Shown in pieces: positions 26,375 to 33,884 of a stretch of DNA of 64,000 bases. This DNA is from an uncultured Acidobacteriaceae bacterium (GTDB lineage: Bacteria > Acidobacteriota > Terriglobia > Terriglobales > Acidobacteriaceae): assembly GCA_963767315.1 (NCBI GenBank), contig CAVYDK010000014.1:45894-109893 (forward strand). The letters are read 5' to 3'. The notes beneath the pieces are model-generated. The model was not told the origin of the DNA and did not search any database. It saw only the letters and a list, made by a program, of their open reading frames with translations. The translations under genes were made by a program, and so were the position numbers. Every line of letters starts with the position of its first letter. Positions within the stretch are counted from its first letter, which is position 1.

Positions 26375-26443
26375 CTACTTCATACACCCGTCGAAGATGT
26401 TCGACAGGCGACAACAAGAGCGGCGTTGGGACGCGCGAACCAT
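26375..26443 (-). CDS. Cys-rich leader peptide upstream of cysD (MVRASQRRSCCRLSNIFDGCMK)
   Basis: 22 codons, 3 Cys all TGT, AGGA 8 nt before ATG, ends 112 nt before cysD. Confidence 0.7.
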   Translation of the reverse strand: MVRASQRRSCCRLSNIFDGCMK

Positions 26444-26538: not shown

Positions 26539-26614
26539 TGGAGCGCCGGGCGGGAATTGAACCCGCGAATACAGGTTTTGCAGACCTGCGCGTTAGCCGC
26601 TTCGCCACCGGCGC
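26539..26614 (-). tRNA. tRNA-Cys(GCA)
   Basis: GCGCCGG acceptor, CAGGT-CTGCAAA-ACCTG anticodon arm, GTTCAAT T-loop, U73-CCA. Confidence 0.96.
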
Positions 26615-26897: not shown

Positions 26898-29800
26898 CTA
26901 GAAGAGAAGTTTGAGGCCGAGCTGGATCTGGCGTGTGGTGGCGGCGGAGGTGATGACTCCGGCGGTGGGGCTGAGGGCAACGGCGCTGGTCTGGTTGGCG
27001 GCGGTGCCCTGGGTGGGCCCGGCGGAGAAGACTGTCTCGGCCGGAGTGAGCAGGTTGGTGTGGTTGAGGACGTTGAAGAACTCGGCGCGGAACTGCGCGC
27101 GGACTCGCTCGGTGAGCTGCGTGGTCTTGGCCAGCGACAGGTCGAGGTCGTTGTAGCCGGGGCCGGTGAGCGTGTCGCGGCGGAGGTTGCCAACCGTACC
27201 GTAGGCGGGCGCGGAGAAGGCGGCGGGATTGAAGTACTGGGCTACTTTTTGTGCGGTAGTACCCTGGGTGTAGAGCGATCCGGTGAATGCGGGGTTGACG
27301 TTGGGGCGGACGGGGTTTCGCGAGTCGCCGGAGCCGGTGGGGTTATAGCCAAGCTGCGGGCTGAAGGGGAAGCCCGACTCGAGGGTTGCGATGGCGGAGA
27401 GCGTCCAGCCGGAGACGGCGGCGTTGGCGAAAGGCCTGGCGTTGGCCAGCAAGAGATGGTTCTTGCCGAAGGGCAGGTCGTAGCTGGCGTTGATGGAGGC
27501 AAGGTTGCGGATGTCTGTGGCGGCAGGACCCCAGTCGAGCGCGGGATTGTTGGGGTAGGAGACGAAGGCTGGCGTGTTGGCGGAGACGCTGGTGTTCCAT
27601 GCGGAGCCGTCGTCGAGATTACGCGCGTAGGTGTAGTTGGCGCGGAAGGTGAGACCATTGGCCAGCGAGCGGTGGAGATCGACTTCGAGTGCATTGTAGG
27701 AACTCGACCCCTGCGAGACCCAACTTGTGGTGTTGGCGAGCGCGGGGTTGGGCTTGGTGGTCGTCGGGTAGTAGATGATGCCGCCGGGCTGGACGACACT
27801 GGCGGGCTCGTTGAGATCCTCGGAGAGGATATGGTGGGTGCCGTGCGAGCCGACGTAGCCGATGGTGAGCGAAGTCTTCGGTGCGATCTGCTGCTCGACG
27901 CGCAAGGTCCACGCGAAGACAGATGGCGTTGCGATGTCGGGCTGCACTGTGGAGGGTGAGACAGAGGAAGCGCCAGAGGTCGGATTTGCAACACTGCCTG
28001 AAGTCGAGTAGATGGTGTTGAAGGGGGCCGACTGGTCGAGGCGGTAGTCGAGCGTGTCGAGCAGAGCGTGGTGCAGGCCGAAGCTGGCGCGCAGGACTGT
28101 TTTGCCGGTGCTGAACGGATCGTAGGAGAGGCCGAGGCGCGGCTCGGGGAGGAACTTGGCTCGGTTGGTGGTGAGGGAGGAGGAACCGGTGGTGGGGGTT
28201 GAGTTGATGATGCCGCTAGTGAATCCGTAGACCGGCGCGCGACCGTGCGAAGCGTTCCATCCGTCGGTGGATTCTGTGCGCAGGCCGGCGCGGAGTTCGA
28301 GGTTGGGGAAAGTTTTGATGGTGTCTTCAACGTAACCATCGACGAAGGTGCTGCGCCAGCCCAGTTCGGTGGTGGAGGGGACGTAGGTGAAGGTCTTGAT
28401 GGTTCCCTGCAGGAAGGTGGTGAGCGAGGCGAAGCTGGCCTGGCCGTCCTGGTCCTGCGCCAGGTTGTCGTTGGACTCGAGCAGTTGCAGCCAGCCACCG
28501 GCCTCGATCTGCTGGCGTCCGCGCGAGTAGTAGATGTGATCATCAAAAGTAAATAGGTTGCGCGTGGTGCTGTTGTTGGAGCCAACGTTGACGCCCGCCG
28601 TAGTGATGGTGGACGCGCCGTTGGAGGCCGTCGAGCCGGCGATGACGACCGCGCCGGTGGGCTTGCCAACGAGAAAGGTCGGGGTTACGGCTTGAATGTT
28701 GGCGGGAACCGAGCCGAGGAAGAAGAAGCTGGCGCGAGAGAAGCCTGCGCGGGCGGTGTTGAGCAGGCGCGGCGAGAAGACGTGCTGCTCCTGCACGCTC
28801 GCCACCTGCTCGCGCAGATTCTCCTCAACGAGTGAGTAGGGGTCTTGCGTGGGTGTGTGGGCGATGGAGTCGTCGATGGTGTAGACGGCGAAGAGCAGAT
28901 CGTTCGGCGTGAGGTTGGCGTCGAAGCGCGTGGTGCCGAAGTCCTCGCGGATGTGCTGAGTGGGCGAGGAGAATGCCTCGGCGATGCCGGTGGGAAGGCC
29001 GGTGGGAGAGAGGAGTTCAGGGCCGTTCTGCGTTGGCCACAGGTTCAGCAGGCCAGCGACTCCGGCGCCGAGCGTGACGGGTGAGAGTGCGCCGGTGGTC
29101 GCGTTGGGCACCAGGCCGTTGCGTGCGTTCGAGTCGGGCACGAAGGTGACGTTGGAGATGCCGAGGTTCTGGCGATAGCCCTCGTAATTCGCGAAGAGGA
29201 ATAGCTTGTCTGTCTTGATCGGGCCGCCCAGCGATGCTCCGAAGTTGTTGCGCTGGAACTCCGGGATGCGTGCGGGGTCAAAATAATTGCGCGCGTCGAA
29301 AAAGGAGTTGCGCAGGAACTCGTAGATCGATCCATGAACGCTGTTGGTTCCGGAGGCGGTGATGATGGAGACCTGCGCGCCCTGCCGCTTGCCGTAGGCG
29401 GCGGAGTACGTGTCTGTGATGACGTTGAACTCGCGCACGGCCTCGACGCCGAGGAGTTGGCCGCTGGTGCCGCCGGGGGTGACGTTGATGAGCGATGCTC
29501 CGGTGTACTCGACGCCGTTGAGCAGGTAGAGATTGTCCTGCGGGCGGCGGCCACTGACGGCGAACATATTTCCCACCGATGAGTTCGACGTGCCGATGGA
29601 GCCCGAGCGCTGGGCGGTGTAGTTGACGGTGGCGGGGTTCAGGGTGATGAGCTGGTCGTAGCTGCGTCCGTTGAGGGGGAGTTCCTTGATCTGGTGCGCG
29701 TCGATCAGGCCGGCAGTCTGCTGCGTGGAGAGGTTGACGACAGGGGACTCGTCGTTGACAGTGACGGTCTGCACGACTCCGGTGAGCGGGAGCGTGAGGT

Positions 29801-30110
29801 TGACGCTCTGCGACTGGCCGACCGAGAGCGCGATTCCGGTGCGGCGCTGCTGGCTGAAACCGGTGGCGTCGGCGGTGATGGTGTAGCTGCCGACCGGGAT
29901 GGACGGCGCGGCGTAGCGGCCATCAGGGCCGGTCTGGAGATGACGCTCGTTGCCCGTCTCATCGTTGTGGACGAGGACGGCGGCGTTGGCGATGGCTGCG
30001 CCGGTGGAGTCGGTAATGGTGCCGGAGATGGTGCCGCCGACGACCTGCGCGGGAGCGAGTTGCACAGCCAGGCCGAAGACCAGAATCATTCCAATCAATT
30101 TGCGTACCAT
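26898..30110 (-). CDS. TonB-dependent receptor inside the sulfate-assimilation cluster
   Basis: GTITDSTGAAI, LPLNGRSY, VHGSIYEFLRN, RQIQLGLKLLF; SD AGGAG before ATG at 30110. Confidence 0.92.
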   Translation of the reverse strand: MVRKLIGMILVFGLAVQLAPAQVVGGTISGTITDSTGAAIANAAVLVHNDETGNERHLQTGPDGRYAAPSIPVGSYTITADATGFSQQRRTGIALSVGQSQSVNLTLPLTGVVQTVTVNDESPVVNLSTQQTAGLIDAHQIKELPLNGRSYDQLITLNPATVNYTAQRSGSIGTSNSSVGNMFAVSGRRPQDNLYLLNGVEYTGASLINVTPGGTSGQLLGVEAVREFNVITDTYSAAYGKRQGAQVSIITASGTNSVHGSIYEFLRNSFFDARNYFDPARIPEFQRNNFGASLGGPIKTDKLFLFANYEGYRQNLGISNVTFVPDSNARNGLVPNATTGALSPVTLGAGVAGLLNLWPTQNGPELLSPTGLPTGIAEAFSSPTQHIREDFGTTRFDANLTPNDLLFAVYTIDDSIAHTPTQDPYSLVEENLREQVASVQEQHVFSPRLLNTARAGFSRASFFFLGSVPANIQAVTPTFLVGKPTGAVVIAGSTASNGASTITTAGVNVGSNNSTTRNLFTFDDHIYYSRGRQQIEAGGWLQLLESNDNLAQDQDGQASFASLTTFLQGTIKTFTYVPSTTELGWRSTFVDGYVEDTIKTFPNLELRAGLRTESTDGWNASHGRAPVYGFTSGIINSTPTTGSSSLTTNRAKFLPEPRLGLSYDPFSTGKTVLRASFGLHHALLDTLDYRLDQSAPFNTIYSTSGSVANPTSGASSVSPSTVQPDIATPSVFAWTLRVEQQIAPKTSLTIGYVGSHGTHHILSEDLNEPASVVQPGGIIYYPTTTKPNPALANTTSWVSQGSSSYNALEVDLHRSLANGLTFRANYTYARNLDDGSAWNTSVSANTPAFVSYPNNPALDWGPAATDIRNLASINASYDLPFGKNHLLLANARPFANAAVSGWTLSAIATLESGFPFSPQLGYNPTGSGDSRNPVRPNVNPAFTGSLYTQGTTAQKVAQYFNPAAFSAPAYGTVGNLRRDTLTGPGYNDLDLSLAKTTQLTERVRAQFRAEFFNVLNHTNLLTPAETVFSAGPTQGTAANQTSAVALSPTAGVITSAATTRQIQLGLKLLF

Positions 30111-30215
30111 GGCAGTCTCCTGTATGCAGTCCATCCGCGTTCGCCGTCCATGGGGATGGCGCCAGACCGGATGATGCATTCCGTTTGATTTTTGTTTTGT
30201 TTACCGCGTGAGAAT

Positions 30216-30335
30216 TCAACCGCGAAGGGCTGGCGCGCGAGATCGACAGGCACAACAATGCGCTCTTCCCGGCCGGCTCAGCGCGCGGGCGAAGCTTGCA
30301 AACAAGGGTGCGGAGATCGGGGTATACACGGGCAT
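30216..30335 (-). CDS. Cys-rich leader peptide upstream of the TonB receptor (...RPGRAHCCACRSRAPALRG)
   Basis: CAT TGT TGT GCC TGT CGA; stop 105 nt before the receptor ATG; start uncertain (ATG 30335, or in-frame GTG/TTG downstream). Confidence 0.6.
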   Translation of the reverse strand: MPVYTPISAPLFASFARALSRPGRAHCCACRSRAPALRG

Positions 30336-30441
30336 CCTGGACTCGGTGGACCTACGAAGTGCGTTTGTATGGGGAAAGACAAAATCGCGGACAGGCCAGC
30401 GGGCGCTAGCGCAGACAGCAACAACACGCGAATTTGATAAA

Positions 30442-30466
30442 GAAGTTTTGCATCTGAAAAAACTTC
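30442..30466. promoter_or_regulatory. inverted repeat in the divergent promoter region
   Basis: GAAGTTTT-N9-AAAACTTC. Confidence 0.4.
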
Positions 30467-30544
30467 CTGACTGGCACAGTCTAGCGAAGATTGGAATTCC
30501 TGTCCAGCGACCCGCCGATTTTTTTTTTGCGCGCCGCGGGCAAC

Positions 30545-30573
30545 TTGACTTTCGCCCGGGCTGCACCTACTGT
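30545..30573 (+). promoter_or_regulatory. sigma70-type promoter predicting a leaderless transcript
   Basis: TTGACT-17 bp-TACTGT, then 6 nt to the ATG at 30580. Confidence 0.75.
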
Positions 30574-30579
30574 CTACTT

Positions 30580-30633
30580 ATGGAAGGTCAGCTCTGTTGT
30601 CGCCGCTGTTCACAGCCTCGCGCGGACAGATGA
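30580..30633 (+). CDS. Cys-rich leader peptide upstream of sir (MEGQLCCRRCSQPRADR)
   Basis: 17 codons, 3 Cys all TGT, ATG at the predicted +1, ends 94 nt before sir. Confidence 0.78.
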   Translation: MEGQLCCRRCSQPRADR

Positions 30634-30673
30634 CCTGGGTCTAAAGTTCAGATCGAAATCCCGGTTTTCAGAT

Positions 30674-30711
30674 ACCCGCGAAGCAGCCGTTGCTGTCGCG
30701 GGTTTTCTGTT
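30674..30711 (+). terminator. attenuator-like intrinsic terminator between the leader and sir
   Basis: ACCCGCGA-AG-CAGC-CGTT-GCTG-TCGCGGGT followed by TTTCTGTT. Confidence 0.65.
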
Positions 30712-30727
30712 CCAGGCGAGGGATAAT

Positions 30728-32425
30728 ATGACGGAAGCAATCCAGAAGAAAGAGACCAAGGCGCAACAGGCGGAACGCTTGAAGCGCGAAAAGAACCCCT
30801 GGGAAGCCTTCGATGAGGTGCGCGCCTTTGCGCGCCAGGGCCGCGCCAGCGTGTTGCCCGACTGGGCTTCCAGTTATTTCAAATGGTGGGGCGTCTACAC
30901 CCAGGGCGACGGCGTGGGAGCTACCGGCGGCAAAGGCGGCGAGGGCCTGGCCTCTGAATTCTTCATGATGCGCATCGGCATTCCCAACGGCATCGTCACC
31001 GCCGGCCAGCTTCGCGTCATCGGCGGATTGGCGCGCAAATACGCCCGCAACCTTGCCGACATCACCGTGCGCCAGAATATTCAGCTTCACTGGCTTACCA
31101 TCGAGTCGCTCCCCGAGGTTGTGGATGCGCTGGACGCCATCGGGCTTTCGCCCAAGGGGGCCTGCGGCGATGTGGTGCGCAATGTGACCGGCTGCCCGCT
31201 GGCCGGAGTCGCCGCCGATGAGTTGATCGACGCCTCCCCGCTCGCCCTGCAGATCGCGCGCCTGCTGACGGCGAATCCGGAGTTCTACAACCTGCCGCGC
31301 AAATTCAAAATCTCCGTCACCGGCTGCCCCTCCTGGTGCACACACCCGGAGATCAACGACATTGCCCTCACTGCAACCGAAAACAACGGCCAGATCGGTT
31401 ACTCGCTGCGCGTCGGCGGCGGCCTCTCCAAGGAACCGCATCTTGCCGTTCGTCTCAATGCCTTCATTCTCCCCGATCAGGCGGTCCGCGTTGCGCGCGC
31501 CATAGCTGAAATCTTTCGCGATCAGCAGGGCCTACGGGAAAACCGCAGCCAGGCCCGCATGAAGTATCTCTTTCTGAAAGAAGGCTGGACCGCCGAGAGT
31601 TTTCTTGCAGAACTGCAGTCGCGACTCGACTTCACGCTGTTGCCCGGCGTGCCCGAGCAGGTTCCCGAGGACATCTTCCGCGACCATGCGGGCATTCATC
31701 CGCAGCGCCAGCCCGGCTTGAGCTACGTTGGTGCATCGGTCCTGCGCGGCCGGATGAGCGGCGAGCAGTTGGAAGCCGCCGCCGAACTTGCCGAGCGCTT
31801 CGGAAGCGGAGCGTTGCGCGCAACTGTCTCGCAAAACCTGCTCTTCATCGACATTCCCAACCGCAAGACAGCCGAATTAGCGCGGGAACTTGGGCAGATC
31901 GGCCTTCATGTCGATGGTTCGTCTTTTTGGCGCGGCGCGGTCGCCTGCACCGGCACTGAGTTTTGCAAGCTGGCCATCACGGAAACCAAGGGCTTTACAC
32001 GCTGGATCGTGGATGAGCTCGAAGAGCGGCTGCCCGCGTTCGACCAGCAGCTCCGGCTGCACGTCACCGGCTGCCCCAATAGCTGCGGACAGCACTGGAT
32101 CGCCGACATCGGCATCGAGGGCAAAAAAATCAAGCACGAGGGCAAGCTCACCGACGCTTATTACTTCTGCCTCGGCGGAGCGGTGGGCCGGCACGCTTCC
32201 ATCGCGCGCCCGGTAGGCTATCGCTGCCCCGCGCCGCTGGTGCCTGAAGCGATCGAGCGTCTGCTCCGCCACTACCTCGCCAGCCGCCTGCCTGAAGAGA
32301 ACCTGCGCACCTGGTTCTTGCGCCACACGAACGATGAGCTGCGCGCCGATTTGGCGGGTGAGGTTTTGCCGCCGGTCGAGCGCGACCTGCCCGCGGGCCG
32401 CGTGCCCCACGGCATCGCCGATTGA
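30728..32425 (+). CDS. sir: nitrite/sulfite reductase (siroheme, ferredoxin-type), likely sulfite reductase
   Basis: ACGDVVRNV, NLPRKFKI, ACTGTEFCKLA...VTGCPNSCGQH siroheme/Fe-S motif; cys context. Confidence 0.9.
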   Translation: MTEAIQKKETKAQQAERLKREKNPWEAFDEVRAFARQGRASVLPDWASSYFKWWGVYTQGDGVGATGGKGGEGLASEFFMMRIGIPNGIVTAGQLRVIGGLARKYARNLADITVRQNIQLHWLTIESLPEVVDALDAIGLSPKGACGDVVRNVTGCPLAGVAADELIDASPLALQIARLLTANPEFYNLPRKFKISVTGCPSWCTHPEINDIALTATENNGQIGYSLRVGGGLSKEPHLAVRLNAFILPDQAVRVARAIAEIFRDQQGLRENRSQARMKYLFLKEGWTAESFLAELQSRLDFTLLPGVPEQVPEDIFRDHAGIHPQRQPGLSYVGASVLRGRMSGEQLEAAAELAERFGSGALRATVSQNLLFIDIPNRKTAELARELGQIGLHVDGSSFWRGAVACTGTEFCKLAITETKGFTRWIVDELEERLPAFDQQLRLHVTGCPNSCGQHWIADIGIEGKKIKHEGKLTDAYYFCLGGAVGRHASIARPVGYRCPAPLVPEAIERLLRHYLASRLPEENLRTWFLRHTNDELRADLAGEVLPPVERDLPAGRVPHGIAD

Positions 32426-32435
32426 GGATCAAGCC

Positions 32436-33884
32436 ATGAGCCTGTTGCCGGTCTTTCTCAAACTCGATGGTCGCCCCGGCCTGCTGGTGGGCGCGGGAGC
32501 TGTCGCCCTGGAAAAAATCGGCAGCCTGCTCAAGACAGGGCTGCGGCTCCGCGTTGTCGCTCCCAATGCAGTGCCTGAAGTACGGCAACTCGCTATCGAA
32601 GGCCGGCTCGAATGGATCGAGCGCCCTTTCGAATTCTCCGACCTCGATGGCAACTTCCTGGTCATCGCCGCCACCGATTCTGCCGAGGTCAATGCAGCCG
32701 TCTACCAGCGCGCGCGCGCGCGCGGCATTCTGGCCAACAGCGTGGACGACCCTCCCCACTGCGATTTCTATTTCGGCTCCGTGGTCAGTCGCGGCGAATT
32801 GCAAATTGCCATCTCGACGGCCGGAGAGAGTCCTGCCGTCGCGCAGCGTCTGCGCCGCGAGATCGACGAGCAGTTGCCGGAAGACCTCGGCCGCTGGCTT
32901 GAAGATATGGGTAGGTTGCGCCGCGAAGTGTTGGCAAAGCAACCGCGCGGCGAGTCGCGCAGGCGGATGCTGCATCAATTGGCGCAGCGTCCGGTGTGCG
33001 AAGCGGCGTCCTGCCCCTCGCGCCAATTGGCCCTCGCGCCGTTAAAAAACGAGAACGCCAATTCAGCAGGAACGGTCTATCTGGTGGGGGCCGGTCCGGG
33101 AGATCCAGATTTGCTCACTCTCAAGGCGCTGCGCCTCATTCAGTCAGCCGACCTCATCCTCCACGACGACCTTGTTCCGCAGGCAATTCTTCACCTCGCG
33201 CCGTCCGACGCCGAAATCATCAATGTGGGCAAGCGCTGCGGCGTGAAGAGCATCTCGCAGGAGCAGATCAACGCGCTGATGGTGGCGAGCGCCCGCGCTC
33301 GTCGCACTGTGCTGCGCCTCAAGAGCGGCGATCCGCTGATCTTCAGTCGTGCCAGCGAGGAGATCGCCGCGCTCACGGAATCCGGCGTGCCCTTTGAGAT
33401 CGTCCCCGGCCTCTCTGCCGCTTTTGCCGCAGCCGCGGCCATCGGCTGCCCGCTTTCCAGCCGCAACAGCGCATCGAATGTGATCTTCTCCACCGGCCAT
33501 CACGCCCAGTCTCACAATTGCGCGCCGCTGCCGCAACTGGAAGACGCAACCCGCGTGGTTTATATGCCCGGCCGCGATCTGAGTTTGCTGGCGGAACAAT
33601 GGCTCGACGAAGGCCTGCCCCCCGAATTCCCCTGCGCCGTCGTCTCGCAAGCCTCTCAGCCCGGCCAGCAGCTTCGCTGCACTACGCTCGCCGCACTCGG
33701 CAACGCCGAGCCGTTTGACGCGCCGAGTCTGCTGATCGCCGGCTGGGCGCTTCGAGAGTCCTCTGCCGCATTCCAGCACCTCGCCAAAACTACATCCGAG
33801 CGAAATGGAGAGCTTTCTCGGTCGGAAACTCCTGCACCGAAAACGTCTTTTGTCTCTGCTTCTGGTCCGGCACCTTCCCGGTAG
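32436..33884 (+). CDS. cysG: siroheme synthase (dehydrogenase/ferrochelatase + uroporphyrinogen-III methylase)
   Basis: LLPVFLKL, NSVDDPPHCDFYF, VYLVGAGPGDPDLLT, RLKSGDPLIF; last ~35 aa derive from IS-end/integrase DNA. Confidence 0.93.
   Translation: MSLLPVFLKLDGRPGLLVGAGAVALEKIGSLLKTGLRLRVVAPNAVPEVRQLAIEGRLEWIERPFEFSDLDGNFLVIAATDSAEVNAAVYQRARARGILANSVDDPPHCDFYFGSVVSRGELQIAISTAGESPAVAQRLRREIDEQLPEDLGRWLEDMGRLRREVLAKQPRGESRRRMLHQLAQRPVCEAASCPSRQLALAPLKNENANSAGTVYLVGAGPGDPDLLTLKALRLIQSADLILHDDLVPQAILHLAPSDAEIINVGKRCGVKSISQEQINALMVASARARRTVLRLKSGDPLIFSRASEEIAALTESGVPFEIVPGLSAAFAAAAAIGCPLSSRNSASNVIFSTGHHAQSHNCAPLPQLEDATRVVYMPGRDLSLLAEQWLDEGLPPEFPCAVVSQASQPGQQLRCTTLAALGNAEPFDAPSLLIAGWALRESSAAFQHLAKTTSERNGELSRSETPAPKTSFVSASGPAPSR
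33776..33800. mobile_element. isolated IS481-like right-end remnant
   Basis: CCTCGCCAAAACTACATCCGAG matches CCTCGCCAAAATTCAATCCGGG (272-294 region) at 18/22. Confidence 0.5.

What the first reader, a model, noticed from the sequence alone, without database searches (positions are those of the whole stretch)
30545..30727. sir leader: leaderless Cys uORF on a canonical promoter with terminator and possible antiterminator
Seen: TTGACT-17-TACTGT places +1 on the A of the uORF ATG, and no SD precedes it. A GC-rich hairpin with TTTCTGTT lies at 30674-30711. The uORF 3' part (TCGCGCGG, ~30618-30625) can pair with the hairpin's 5' arm (CCCGCGA) in about 7 bp with a bulge. Established: the mycobacterial polycysteine sensors are leaderless. 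Inference: stalling at Cys6-7 exposes the antiterminator, while full translation masks it and allows termination. The antiterminator pairing is modest and was judged by eye.
Basis: partly seen in the sequence, partly recalled or inferred. Interest (0 to 1): 0.8.

Follow-up and report, generated by a model that had tools for sequence, protein, structure and literature searches.

The report
Cysteine-sensing leader peptide attenuator of sir
A 17-codon, cysteine-rich mini-gene that starts at the first base of its mRNA, followed by a transcription stop hairpin, lies in front of the sulfite reductase operon of this soil Acidobacterium and of about 85% of its relatives, so it very probably switches the operon on when cysteine runs short: a known kind of switch that I found no published report of in this phylum.

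Summary
TTGACT-17-TACTGT sits 6 nt before the ATG at 30580, with no SD. The uORF (30580-30633) reads MEGQLCCRRCSQPRADR. A GC-rich hairpin with UUUUCUGUU (30674-30711, -19 kcal/mol) lies 17 nt before the sir SD.

Comparison decides the case. Of 109 sir loci from Terriglobales Acidobacteria, 98 have a Cys-rich short ORF upstream and 93 also have a hairpin plus U-tract. In 80 the start codon lies 5-8 nt after a TAnnnT hexamer. Controls: 91/103 real regions have at least 3 Cys in 8 residues, against 11/103 reverse complements and 6/103 shuffles. The closest clade (Terracidiphilus) keeps a 17-codon MxxxxCCRCCxxxRAxR.

The antiterminator is moderately supported. Cognate uORF-3'-part and terminator-arm pairings beat all 120 clade swaps. 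Folding with a ribosome stalled at Cys6-7 forms the pairing; a ribosome at the stop codon masks it. Base-by-base covariation within the clade is not significant.

Verdict: a ribosome-mediated, cysteine-responsive transcription attenuator with a leaderless leader peptide. It is a new member of a known kind. I found no Rfam match and no paper on it in Acidobacteria.

The parts
30545..30550 (+). -35 hexamer TTGACT
   Evidence: Read. TTGAC[T/G] is conserved 17 nt before the -10 in same-genus relatives, and TTGAC/TTGCA in the Terracidiphilus clade.
30568..30573 (+). -10 hexamer TACTGT (TAnnnT class, 3/6 to consensus)
   Evidence: Read. A TAnnnT hexamer lies 5-8 nt before the uORF start in 80 of 98 leaders. 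It was not listed by the consensus scan.
30580..30633 (+). Leaderless leader ORF MEGQLCCRRCSQPRADR*. The A of the ATG at 30580 is the inferred +1; the stop TGA is at 30631-30633.
   Evidence: Homologous 17-codon uORFs MxxxxCCRCCxxxRAxR occur in 20+ Terracidiphilus-clade MAGs.
30595..30609 (+). Sensor codons: Cys6-Cys7 (UGU UGU, 30595-30600), Arg8, Arg9, Cys10 (UGU, 30607-30609)
   Evidence: Codons 6, 7 and 10 are Cys in nearly all clade members, while codons 2-5 vary freely.
30585..30603 (+). Region 1: 5' strand of the uORF self-hairpin, which pairs with 30620-30636. It acts as an anti-antiterminator in untranslated RNA.
   Evidence: MFE of the free leader. The hairpin spans nt 6-57 at -25.0 kcal/mol. 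Its conservation was not established.
30618..30625 (+). Region 2: antiterminator 5' strand UCGCGCGG, inside codons 13-16 of the uORF
   Evidence: It pairs with 30675-30681 when nt 1-27/31 are masked by a stalled ribosome. The CGCGCG block is conserved. A swap test gives block covariation between clades.
30632..30639 (+). Helper helix, 5' strand GACCUGGG (overlaps the stop codon)
   Evidence: It pairs with 30660-30666 in the stalled-ribosome fold. The block AGGTGACCTGGGTCT is conserved in the clade. 80.7% of alignment cells are paired.
30660..30666 (+). Helper helix, 3' strand CCCGGUU
   Evidence: The helix alone is -6.4 kcal/mol and brings regions 2 and 3 together.
30674..30703 (+). Intrinsic terminator hairpin. 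The outer stem is ACCCGCG/CGCGGGU, the inner stem GCAGC/GCUGU, the loop CGUU. The 5' arm 30675-30681 is region 3.
   Evidence: -19.0 kcal/mol. 92.3% of cells are paired, three pairs show compensatory change, and the covariation score exceeds all 500 shuffles. An equivalent hairpin is present in 93 of 109 loci.
30703..30711 (+). U-tract UUUUCUGUU
   Evidence: Read. A T-rich tract follows the hairpin in the relatives.
30718..30723 (+). Shine-Dalgarno GAGGGA of sir
   Evidence: Read. In the full-length MFE it pairs with AUCCC at 30658-30662, so a second, translational layer is possible. This was not tested.
30728..32425 (+). sir: ferredoxin-type sulfite reductase, 565 aa
   Evidence: Pfam NIR_SIR (5.6e-52) and NIR_SIR_ferr (3e-37). 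Homologues align from residue 1.
32334..33884 (+). Siroheme synthase (CysG-like), second gene of the regulated unit. The true start is probably near 32430.
   Evidence: Pfam TP_methylase, NAD_binding_7 and Sirohm_synth_M.

Best explanation
This is a ribosome-mediated, cysteine-responsive transcription attenuator of the sir-cysG operon.

Inferred sequence of events:
1. RNA polymerase starts at the A of the ATG at 30580, so the mRNA is leaderless. A 70S ribosome begins translating the 17-codon leader at once.
2. When Cys-tRNA(Cys) is plentiful, the ribosome runs to the UGA at 30631-30633. There it covers region 2 (UCGCGCGG, 30618-30625) and the 5' strand of the helper helix. The terminator hairpin (30674-30703) then forms, and transcription ends in the U-tract near 30705-30711. 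The product is an RNA of about 125-130 nt.
3. When Cys-tRNA(Cys) is scarce, the ribosome stalls with Cys6 or Cys7 in the A site. It holds region 1 and leaves region 2 free.
4. Region 2 then pairs with the terminator 5' arm (30675-30681). The helper helix 30632-39/30660-66 stacks on this pairing. Both form before the 3' arm is made, so polymerase reads on into sir and cysG.
5. If no ribosome translates, the uORF folds on itself (-25 kcal/mol), region 2 is sequestered, and termination again results.

What is shown: the sequence elements, their conservation, and the predicted alternative folds.

What is inferred: the TSS, translation of the uORF, stalling, and the cysteine response.
For: Anatomy.

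Regulated genes: the downstream genes are sulfite reductase and siroheme synthase.

Conservation:
- 98 of 109 Terriglobales sir loci have a Cys-rich short ORF, and 93 also have a hairpin plus U-tract. The median uORF is 24 codons with 5 Cys and ends a median of 100 nt before sir.
- Controls: at least 3 Cys in an 8-residue window occurs in 91/103 real regions, against 11/103 reverse complements and 6/103 shuffles.
- Only the Cys positions are conserved in the peptide.

Leaderless geometry:
- A -10-like hexamer lies 5-8 nt before the start codon in 80 of 98 leaders.
- The same genome has a leaderless His-run leader with a terminator before hisI.

Terminator: stem sequences differ between clades but the hairpin persists. 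Within the clade, 92% of cells pair and the covariation score exceeds all 500 shuffles.

Antiterminator:
- The best partner of the 5' arm lies 0-30 nt before the stop codon in most clades.
- The cognate arrangement is the best of 120 clade permutations. For the window's clade the mean is -15.9 kcal/mol, against -9.0 to -11.8 with foreign arms.
- In the window, the probability that the 5' arm is sequestered in nascent RNA is 0.85 with a stalled ribosome. It is 0.52 with a ribosome at the stop, 0.49 for free RNA and 0.50 for shuffled sequence. Across 89 leaders, stall exceeds stop in 70.
- Energies: antiterminator plus helper helix -16.1 (-21.6 with the inner hairpin) against terminator -19.0.
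Against: - There are no experimental data.
- The -10 is weak (3/6) and the consensus scan did not call it.
- Within the Terracidiphilus clade the antiterminator and helper helix are mostly invariant. Covariation there is not significant (score reached by 128 of 500 shuffles).
- One large clade (GCCCAC-type terminators) has only weak antiterminator pairings, about -9 kcal/mol.
- GC-rich arms pair readily with anything. Shuffled controls reach a sequestration probability of 0.51, against 0.66 for the stalled state.
- The window's leader has only 3 Cys codons, the fewest in its clade.
- At equilibrium the full-length leader always folds into the terminator, so the model depends on kinetics.
Confidence: 0.78

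Rival explanations
1. The Cys uORF acts mainly on translation, as in mycobacteria. Ribosome stalling would remodel the leader so that the sir Shine-Dalgarno is freed. The hairpin would serve as an SD-sequestering or stabilising structure rather than a terminator.
For: In the full-length MFE the sir SD region (GGGAU, about 30720-30724) pairs with AUCCC at 30658-30662, at the base of an extended terminator helix. The antiterminator state uses part of that same segment. The only experimentally studied poly-Cys leaderless sORF works translationally.
Against: A GC-rich stem followed directly by a U-tract is present in 93 of 109 loci, although stem sequences change between clades. That is the signature of an intrinsic terminator. 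The Cys tract itself does not pair with the sir SD, which lies more than 110 nt away. Conservation of the SD pairing was not tested.
Confidence: 0.1
2. The small ORF and terminator form an independent gene, either a Cys-rich micropeptide (for example metal- or redox-active) or a small RNA acting in trans. It would merely lie next to sir.
For: The unit has its own promoter and terminator. Cys-rich micropeptides exist. A terminated leader RNA could also have a second role in trans.
Against: Only the Cys run is conserved in the peptide. Length (12-49 codons) and all other residues drift between clades. The unit is always in sense orientation directly upstream of sir, and no second promoter was seen in the 17 nt between the U-tract and the sir SD. 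Similar Cys uORFs precede other sulfur genes in the same cluster.
Confidence: 0.05
3. Premature termination is controlled by something other than the ribosome, such as a protein or a small-molecule-binding RNA fold. The Cys codons would be incidental or secondary.
For: Conserved nucleotide blocks outside the Cys codons (AGGTGACCTGGGTCT and TCC-ACGGTT) show selection at the RNA level.
Against: There is no Rfam match. The conserved blocks are explained by the helper helix. Cys enrichment is the one feature shared by all clades, even where the RNA sequences are unrelated.
Confidence: 0.05
4. The ORF is a chance ORF, or the 3' end of the long open frame 30208-30633, lying before an ordinary hairpin.
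For: The frame is open upstream to a GTG at 30208. Three Cys in 17 codons is only mildly unlikely in random sequence of this GC content.
Against: Conservation is far above the controls. Several relatives have in-frame stops (TAA or TAG) inside the -10 hexamer just before the ATG (TAATAT, TAGAAT). The upstream stretch carries the divergent promoter and opposite-strand uORFs.
Confidence: 0.02

Closest known systems
Classical leader-peptide transcription attenuators of amino-acid operons (E. coli/Salmonella trpL, hisL, leuL, thrL, pheL)
   Same: [quoted passage not shown] It has an intrinsic terminator before the first structural gene. The antiterminator 5' strand lies just downstream of the sensor codons and is masked by a ribosome at the stop codon. 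A 1:2 hairpin enforces termination without translation.
   Different: The sensor amino acid is cysteine, and the regulated genes are sulfite reductase and siroheme synthase. The leader ORF appears to start at +1, with no 5' UTR or SD. The antiterminator is a short long-range stem (7 bp) stacked on a separate helper hairpin. The phylum is Acidobacteriota.
Mycobacterial polycysteine leaderless short ORFs (Ms5788A and the 'Cys ribulon'; Canestrari et al. 2020, bioRxiv 10.1101/834739, Mol Microbiol 114:93)
   Same: It is a leaderless short ORF with consecutive Cys codons upstream of cysteine or sulfur metabolism genes. Several such leaders occur in one genome, and the inferred signal is ribosome pausing on scarce Cys-tRNA.
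   Different: In mycobacteria the poly-Cys tract pairs with the SD of the downstream gene and control is translational. No intrinsic terminator is involved. Here a canonical terminator follows the uORF and the Cys tract does not pair with the sir SD. The sequences are unrelated and the phylum differs.
uORFC-8-2 motif upstream of cysS in Rhodobacterales (Brewer et al. 2021, PMC8632094)
   Same: That motif is also a predicted uORF with tandem Cys codons followed by an intrinsic terminator stem and U run. It was likewise interpreted as ribosome-mediated attenuation.
   Different: That motif controls cysteinyl-tRNA synthetase and is restricted to an alphaproteobacterial order. Its Cys codons are at positions 14-15 inside the first stem, and it is not described as leaderless. 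The window has no Rfam match of any kind.
Candidate Cys leader peptides upstream of cys/cbs operons in Actinobacteria (Seliverstov et al. 2005, PMC1262725)
   Same: These are short ORFs with runs of Cys codons near the stop codon, upstream of cysteine genes.
   Different: No terminator hairpins were found there, and a Rho-dependent mechanism was suggested instead. Here the terminator is the most conserved structural element.

Membership tests
Leader-peptide (ribosome-mediated) transcription attenuators | Short leader ORF enriched in codons of the regulated amino acid | tested here: met
   MEGQLCCRRCSQPRADR. 91/103 related regions have at least 3 Cys in 8 residues, against 6-11/103 in controls.
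Leader-peptide (ribosome-mediated) transcription attenuators | Intrinsic terminator between the leader ORF and the first structural gene | tested here: met
   Hairpin of -19.0 kcal/mol plus UUUUCUGUU. Present in 93/109 loci. 92% of cells are paired and the covariation score exceeds 500/500 shuffles.
Leader-peptide (ribosome-mediated) transcription attenuators | Mutually exclusive antiterminator that uses the terminator 5' arm, is free when the ribosome stalls at sensor codons, and is masked at the stop codon | tested here: inconclusive
   Predicted in the window. Supported between clades by the swap test, 1 of 120 permutations. Base-level covariation within the clade is not significant. No experimental test.
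Leader-peptide (ribosome-mediated) transcription attenuators | 1:2 hairpin that sequesters the antiterminator strand in untranslated RNA | tested here: inconclusive
   A strong uORF self-hairpin (-25.0 kcal/mol) is present in the window. Its 5' strand is variable in relatives and its conservation was not measured.
Leader-peptide (ribosome-mediated) transcription attenuators | Regulated genes belong to the pathway of the sensed amino acid | tested here: met
   The downstream genes are sulfite reductase and siroheme synthase.
Leader-peptide (ribosome-mediated) transcription attenuators | Readthrough increases when the cognate charged tRNA is limiting | not testable with these tools
   This needs experiments.
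Mycobacterial polycysteine leaderless sORF attenuators | Transcript begins at the start codon of the sORF (leaderless) | tested here: inconclusive
   The promoter geometry fits and is conserved, with a -10-like hexamer 5-8 nt before the start in 80/98 leaders. No TSS data are available.
Mycobacterial polycysteine leaderless sORF attenuators | Consecutive Cys codons, upstream of cysteine or sulfur metabolism genes | tested here: met
Mycobacterial polycysteine leaderless sORF attenuators | Poly-Cys tract pairs with and sequesters the SD of the downstream gene; control is translational, without an intrinsic terminator | tested here: not met
   A canonical terminator is present. In the folds the Cys tract pairs within the uORF, not with the sir SD.
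Rfam families, including known amino-acid leaders | Match to a curated covariance model | tested here: not met
   cmscan of 29500-31500 at E<=1 returned only a spurious lncRNA hit outside the element.
uORFC-8-2 motif (Rhodobacterales cysS) | Located upstream of cysS, in an alphaproteobacterial lineage | tested here: not met
   The downstream gene is sir and the organism is a Terracidiphilus-like Acidobacterium.

The most novel reading that the evidence does not exclude
Terriglobales Acidobacteria may run an order-wide 'cysteine ribulon' built from leaderless poly-Cys leader peptides coupled to intrinsic terminators. This would be a transcriptional counterpart of the mycobacterial system.

In this one 5-kb cluster the leaders would control three units:
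- sir-cysG
- cysDN, whose leader lies just downstream of the cluster's own tRNA-Cys gene
- a TonB-dependent outer-membrane receptor, through two tandem Cys uORFs

That would mark the receptor as a cysteine-starvation-induced importer of an unknown sulfur source. Leaderless His and Met/Cys leaders elsewhere in the genome would make leaderless ribosome-mediated attenuation a main amino-acid-sensing strategy of the phylum.

The sir leader may also act at two levels, because the antiterminator state frees the sir SD.
Probability: 0.45. Interest if true: 0.65.

Novelty: new member of a known kind. Interest (0 to 1): 0.5.

Why it matters
Almost none of the attenuators predicted in Acidobacteria have an assigned function (PMC2965389). 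The phylum is abundant in soil and hard to study genetically.

A conserved cis-acting cysteine sensor gives a sequence-readable marker of which genes these bacteria switch on when sulfur or cysteine is short. That set includes an uncharacterised TonB-dependent receptor next door.

It also shows that the poly-Cys leaderless sensor, so far demonstrated only as a translational device in mycobacteria, has been joined to classical terminator/antiterminator logic in an unrelated phylum. This is a case of convergent regulatory design.

The family is large (more than 90 examples here) and diverse enough to found an RNA family model.

Tried and rejected
- **Rfam.** A permissive scan of 29500-31500 found no relevant family.
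- **Consensus scans.** The promoter and terminator scan missed both the promoter (the -10 matches 3/6) and the terminator (its stem has an interior loop). I relied on folding and comparison instead.
- **RNAalifold.** On the 23-sequence clade alignment it recovered only the invariant outer terminator stem. I therefore counted hand-specified structures.
- **Extended antiterminator.** A version adding GCUGUU to AAGCAGC, as suggested by duplexfold, is unfavourable as a single structure at +3.9 kcal/mol. I dropped it in favour of the helper-helix model.
- **Clade definition.** Clustering terminator arms by shared 6-mers lumped 87 of 89 into one group. I replaced it with motif-defined clades.
- **Genome-wide regulon scan.** A scan for Cys uORFs followed by a terminator gave mostly noise. 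It also missed the sir leader, because the leader's frame is open upstream. I therefore give no regulon size.
- **Long ORF 30208-30633.** I rejected it as a gene.
- **Phylum-wide check.** Only 1 of 9 sir loci outside the order has the element. It is not universal in Acidobacteriota.

Full report
**The observation**

The sequence shows the following.
- TTGACT lies at 30545-30550, followed by a 17-nt spacer and TACTGT at 30568-30573.
- Six nt (CTACTT) follow, then ATG at 30580. No purine-rich stretch precedes the ATG.
- The ORF 30580-33 encodes MEGQLCCRRCSQPRADR*.
- Downstream lies A-CCCGCG-AA-GCAGC-CGUU-GCUGU-CGCGGG-U (30674-30703), followed by UUUCUGUU to 30711.
- Then come the SD GAGGGA (30718-23) and the ATG of a 565-aa ORF at 30728.

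The consensus scan listed neither the promoter nor the hairpin. The -10 matches TATAAT at only 3 of 6 positions, and the stem has an interior loop. 'Canonical' is therefore too strong for the -10.

Folding gives the hairpin in the MFE at -19.0 kcal/mol. The by-eye pairing UCGCGCGG (30618-25) with CCCGCGA (30675-81) exists as 7 bp with one bulged C.

**Context**

- The downstream ORF is a ferredoxin-type sulfite reductase (NIR_SIR, NIR_SIR_ferr). A siroheme synthase follows it.
- On the other strand lie a TonB-dependent-type outer-membrane protein (26898-30179), a tRNA-Cys (26539-26614), and CysD and CysN homologues.
- The genome is a 3.04-Mb, 22-contig assembly. The closest sir genes, at 77-89% identity, are from Terracidiphilus and other Acidobacteriaceae MAGs, and from T. 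gabretensis S55.

**Is the uORF real?**

I collected sir loci from 29 related genomes and 80 GTDB species genomes, 109 usable loci in all, the window's own locus among them.
- 98 have a short Cys-rich ORF in the 360 nt upstream, and 93 also have a hairpin plus U-tract. The hairpin is -12 kcal/mol or stronger in 89.
- The median uORF is 24 codons with 5 Cys and ends a median of 100 nt before sir.
- Controls on the same regions: at least 3 Cys within 8 residues of a short ORF occurs in 91/103 real regions. It occurs in 11/103 reverse complements and 6/103 shuffles. For at least 4 Cys the counts are 68, 3 and 0.
- In the closest clade the uORF is always 17 codons, MxxxxCCRCCxxxRAxR. The Cys positions are fixed and codons 2-5 vary freely. 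This is the signature of a sensor leader, not of a functional peptide.
- The window's version, CCRRC, is the Cys-poorest member of the clade.

**Leaderless start**

- In the same-genus relatives, the pattern is TTGAC[G/T], 17 nt, TAnnnT, 6-7 nt, ATG.
- In the second family of the order it is TATAAT, 5 nt, ATG.
- Overall, 80 of 98 leaders have a -10-like hexamer 5-8 nt before the start codon. Several of the rest have near matches such as GAGAAT or CATCAT.
- Some relatives carry TAA or TAG in frame inside that hexamer. This rules out the long frame that is open from 30208 in the window.
- A strict promoter, leaderless short ORF and terminator pattern occurs only five times in the whole genome. 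One hit is this leader. Another is MSSSTQHRGHHHHHAHSVLAAVSGRAK before hisI. The His leader serves as an internal positive control that this organism uses leaderless leader peptides.

**Terminator**

The stem sequences differ between clades, but the hairpin plus U-tract persists. The arm types are:
- CCCGCG..CAGC
- GCGCCCAC
- CCCACCGCCAG
- AACCCGC..CCAGC
- AACCCGGGTGTC

Within the 23-sequence clade alignment, 92.3% of cells pair and three pairs show compensatory changes. The covariation score exceeds all 500 shuffles, and slid controls reach only 31-46% pairing.

**Antiterminator**

- The best duplex partner of the terminator 5' arm lies 0-30 nt before the uORF stop codon, after the Cys run, in most clades.
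- In a swap test over five motif-defined clades, all five cognate combinations have negative residual energy. The cognate assignment is the best of the 120 permutations. For the window's clade the mean is -15.9 kcal/mol, against -9.0 to -11.8 with foreign arms.
- The GCCCAC clade is weak, at about -9 kcal/mol.
- Within the window's clade the pairing is conserved but almost invariant. 78% of cells pair, against 33-55% in slid controls, and covariation is not significant.

**The window's leader under different ribosome positions**

- Free RNA folds the uORF on itself (nt 6-57, -25.0 kcal/mol) and forms the terminator.
- With nt 1-27 or 1-31 masked (ribosome with Cys6 or Cys7 in the A site) and the 3' arm not yet made, nt 39-46 pair with nt 96-102. 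This pairing is stacked on a helix between 30632-39 and 30660-66. That helix explains the two conserved blocks AGGTGACCTGGGTCT and TCC-ACGGTT.
- Together these are worth -16.1 kcal/mol, or -21.6 with the compatible inner hairpin.
- With the ribosome at the stop codon, region 2 is masked.
- The probability that the arm is sequestered in the window is 0.85 (stalled), 0.52 (at stop), 0.49 (free) and 0.50 (shuffled). Across 89 leaders the means are 0.66, 0.46, 0.49 and 0.51, and stall exceeds stop in 70.

I rate the antiterminator as moderately supported. It depends on kinetics, because at equilibrium the terminator always wins.

**Mechanism**

The element has the four regions of a classical attenuator, with a leaderless leader.
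- Plentiful Cys-tRNA leads to termination at about 30705-30711.
- Scarce Cys-tRNA stalls the ribosome at Cys6-7, the antiterminator forms, and transcription reads into sir-cysG.
- In the full-length MFE the sir SD pairs with 30658-62. The antiterminator state partly uses that segment, so a second, translational layer is possible. I did not test this.

**Comparison with known systems**

- The mycobacterial poly-Cys leaderless sORFs share the sensor. Their output is translational, they have no terminator, and the Cys tract itself sequesters the SD.
- Actinobacterial cys leader peptides were reported without terminators.
- The uORFC-8-2 motif of Rhodobacterales cysS has Cys codons plus a terminator, but it controls cysS in another phylum.
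- No paper in the searched library describes a Cys leader in Acidobacteria, and Rfam has no match.
- Earlier unchecked notes of this scan describe the same class in other Acidobacteria genomes. They agree with my reading but are not independent evidence.

**Scope**

The element is widespread in Terriglobales. Outside that order, one of nine sampled Acidobacteriota sir loci has a poly-Cys uORF with a matching antiterminator and terminator.

**Verdict**

This is a real, strongly conserved cysteine-codon leader-peptide attenuator. It is a new member of a known kind, and I found no published description of it in this phylum. My confidence in the overall mechanism is about 0.78. It is lower for the exact antiterminator pairing (about 0.6) and for the leaderless TSS (about 0.7).

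Noticed in passing
window 30406-30506 (- strand): A divergent promoter-like site TGGACA-17-TAGACT lies at 30506..30478. It is followed by AGGAAG and a poly-Cys uORF, MQNFFIKFACCCCLR (30453..30406). The uORF points toward the TonB-dependent receptor gene. Homologues ...IKIACCCCLR and ...LKLACCCCR are present in two close relatives (L032, L039).
   Followed up: partly
window 30216-30335 (- strand): A second, 39-codon ORF ending ...RAHCCACRSRAPALRG lies between the first minus-strand uORF and the TonB receptor start at 30179. Its TGTTGTGCCTGT...CGCGCGCC stretch resembles the sir leader. Relatives L032 and L039 have ...CCCC... versions. The receptor may therefore sit behind two tandem Cys uORFs.
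   Followed up: partly
window 26375-26443 (- strand) and 26539-26614 (- strand): A cysD leader ORF, MVRASQRRSCCRLSNIFDGCMK, is preceded by AGGAA and carries the same TGTTGTCGCC nucleotides as the sir leader. A tRNA-Cys(GCA) gene lies about 95 nt upstream on the same strand. CysD and CysN follow.
   Followed up: partly
G000:C20:18558 (+), outside the window: A leaderless-type His leader lies before a phosphoribosyl-AMP cyclohydrolase (hisI) gene. It has TTGACA-17-TAACTT-8-ATG, the peptide MSSSTQHRGHHHHHAHSVLAAVSGRAK and a -21.9 kcal/mol terminator.
   Followed up: partly
G000:C18:257999 (+), outside the window: A Met/Cys-rich short ORF, MISRPTTVEAMAMCMHMCRRTVGVCGNNPMR, starts 6 nt after TATACT. 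It is followed by a -21.5 kcal/mol terminator and a Cys/Met-metabolism PLP enzyme that looks like O-acetylhomoserine sulfhydrylase. This may be a methionine/cysteine attenuator.
   Followed up: partly
L119 (G120:C363:29181-29741): An Acidobacteriota genome from another family has MNMYDFRTLRCCCSCPCLLGRDAGF... upstream of sir. A sequence GGGCAGGGACGCGGGUUU mimics the 3' arm of the following terminator, AAACCCGCUGCCC...GGCAGCGGGUUUUUU. Here the uORF seems to have a short 5' UTR with GGAG rather than a leaderless start.
   Followed up: no
window 30208-30633 (+): The uORF frame is open upstream to a GTG at 30208, giving a 141-aa ORF. This is a mechanical artefact that runs through the divergent promoter region. 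It made a genome-wide small-ORF scan miss the sir leader.
   Followed up: yes
The genome search tables: Genomes labelled 'same genus' have sir only 64-70% identical to the window's. Genomes labelled 'same family, other genus (g9)' reach 79-82%. Either the sir region or the genus assignment of this MAG does not follow the species tree.
   Followed up: no
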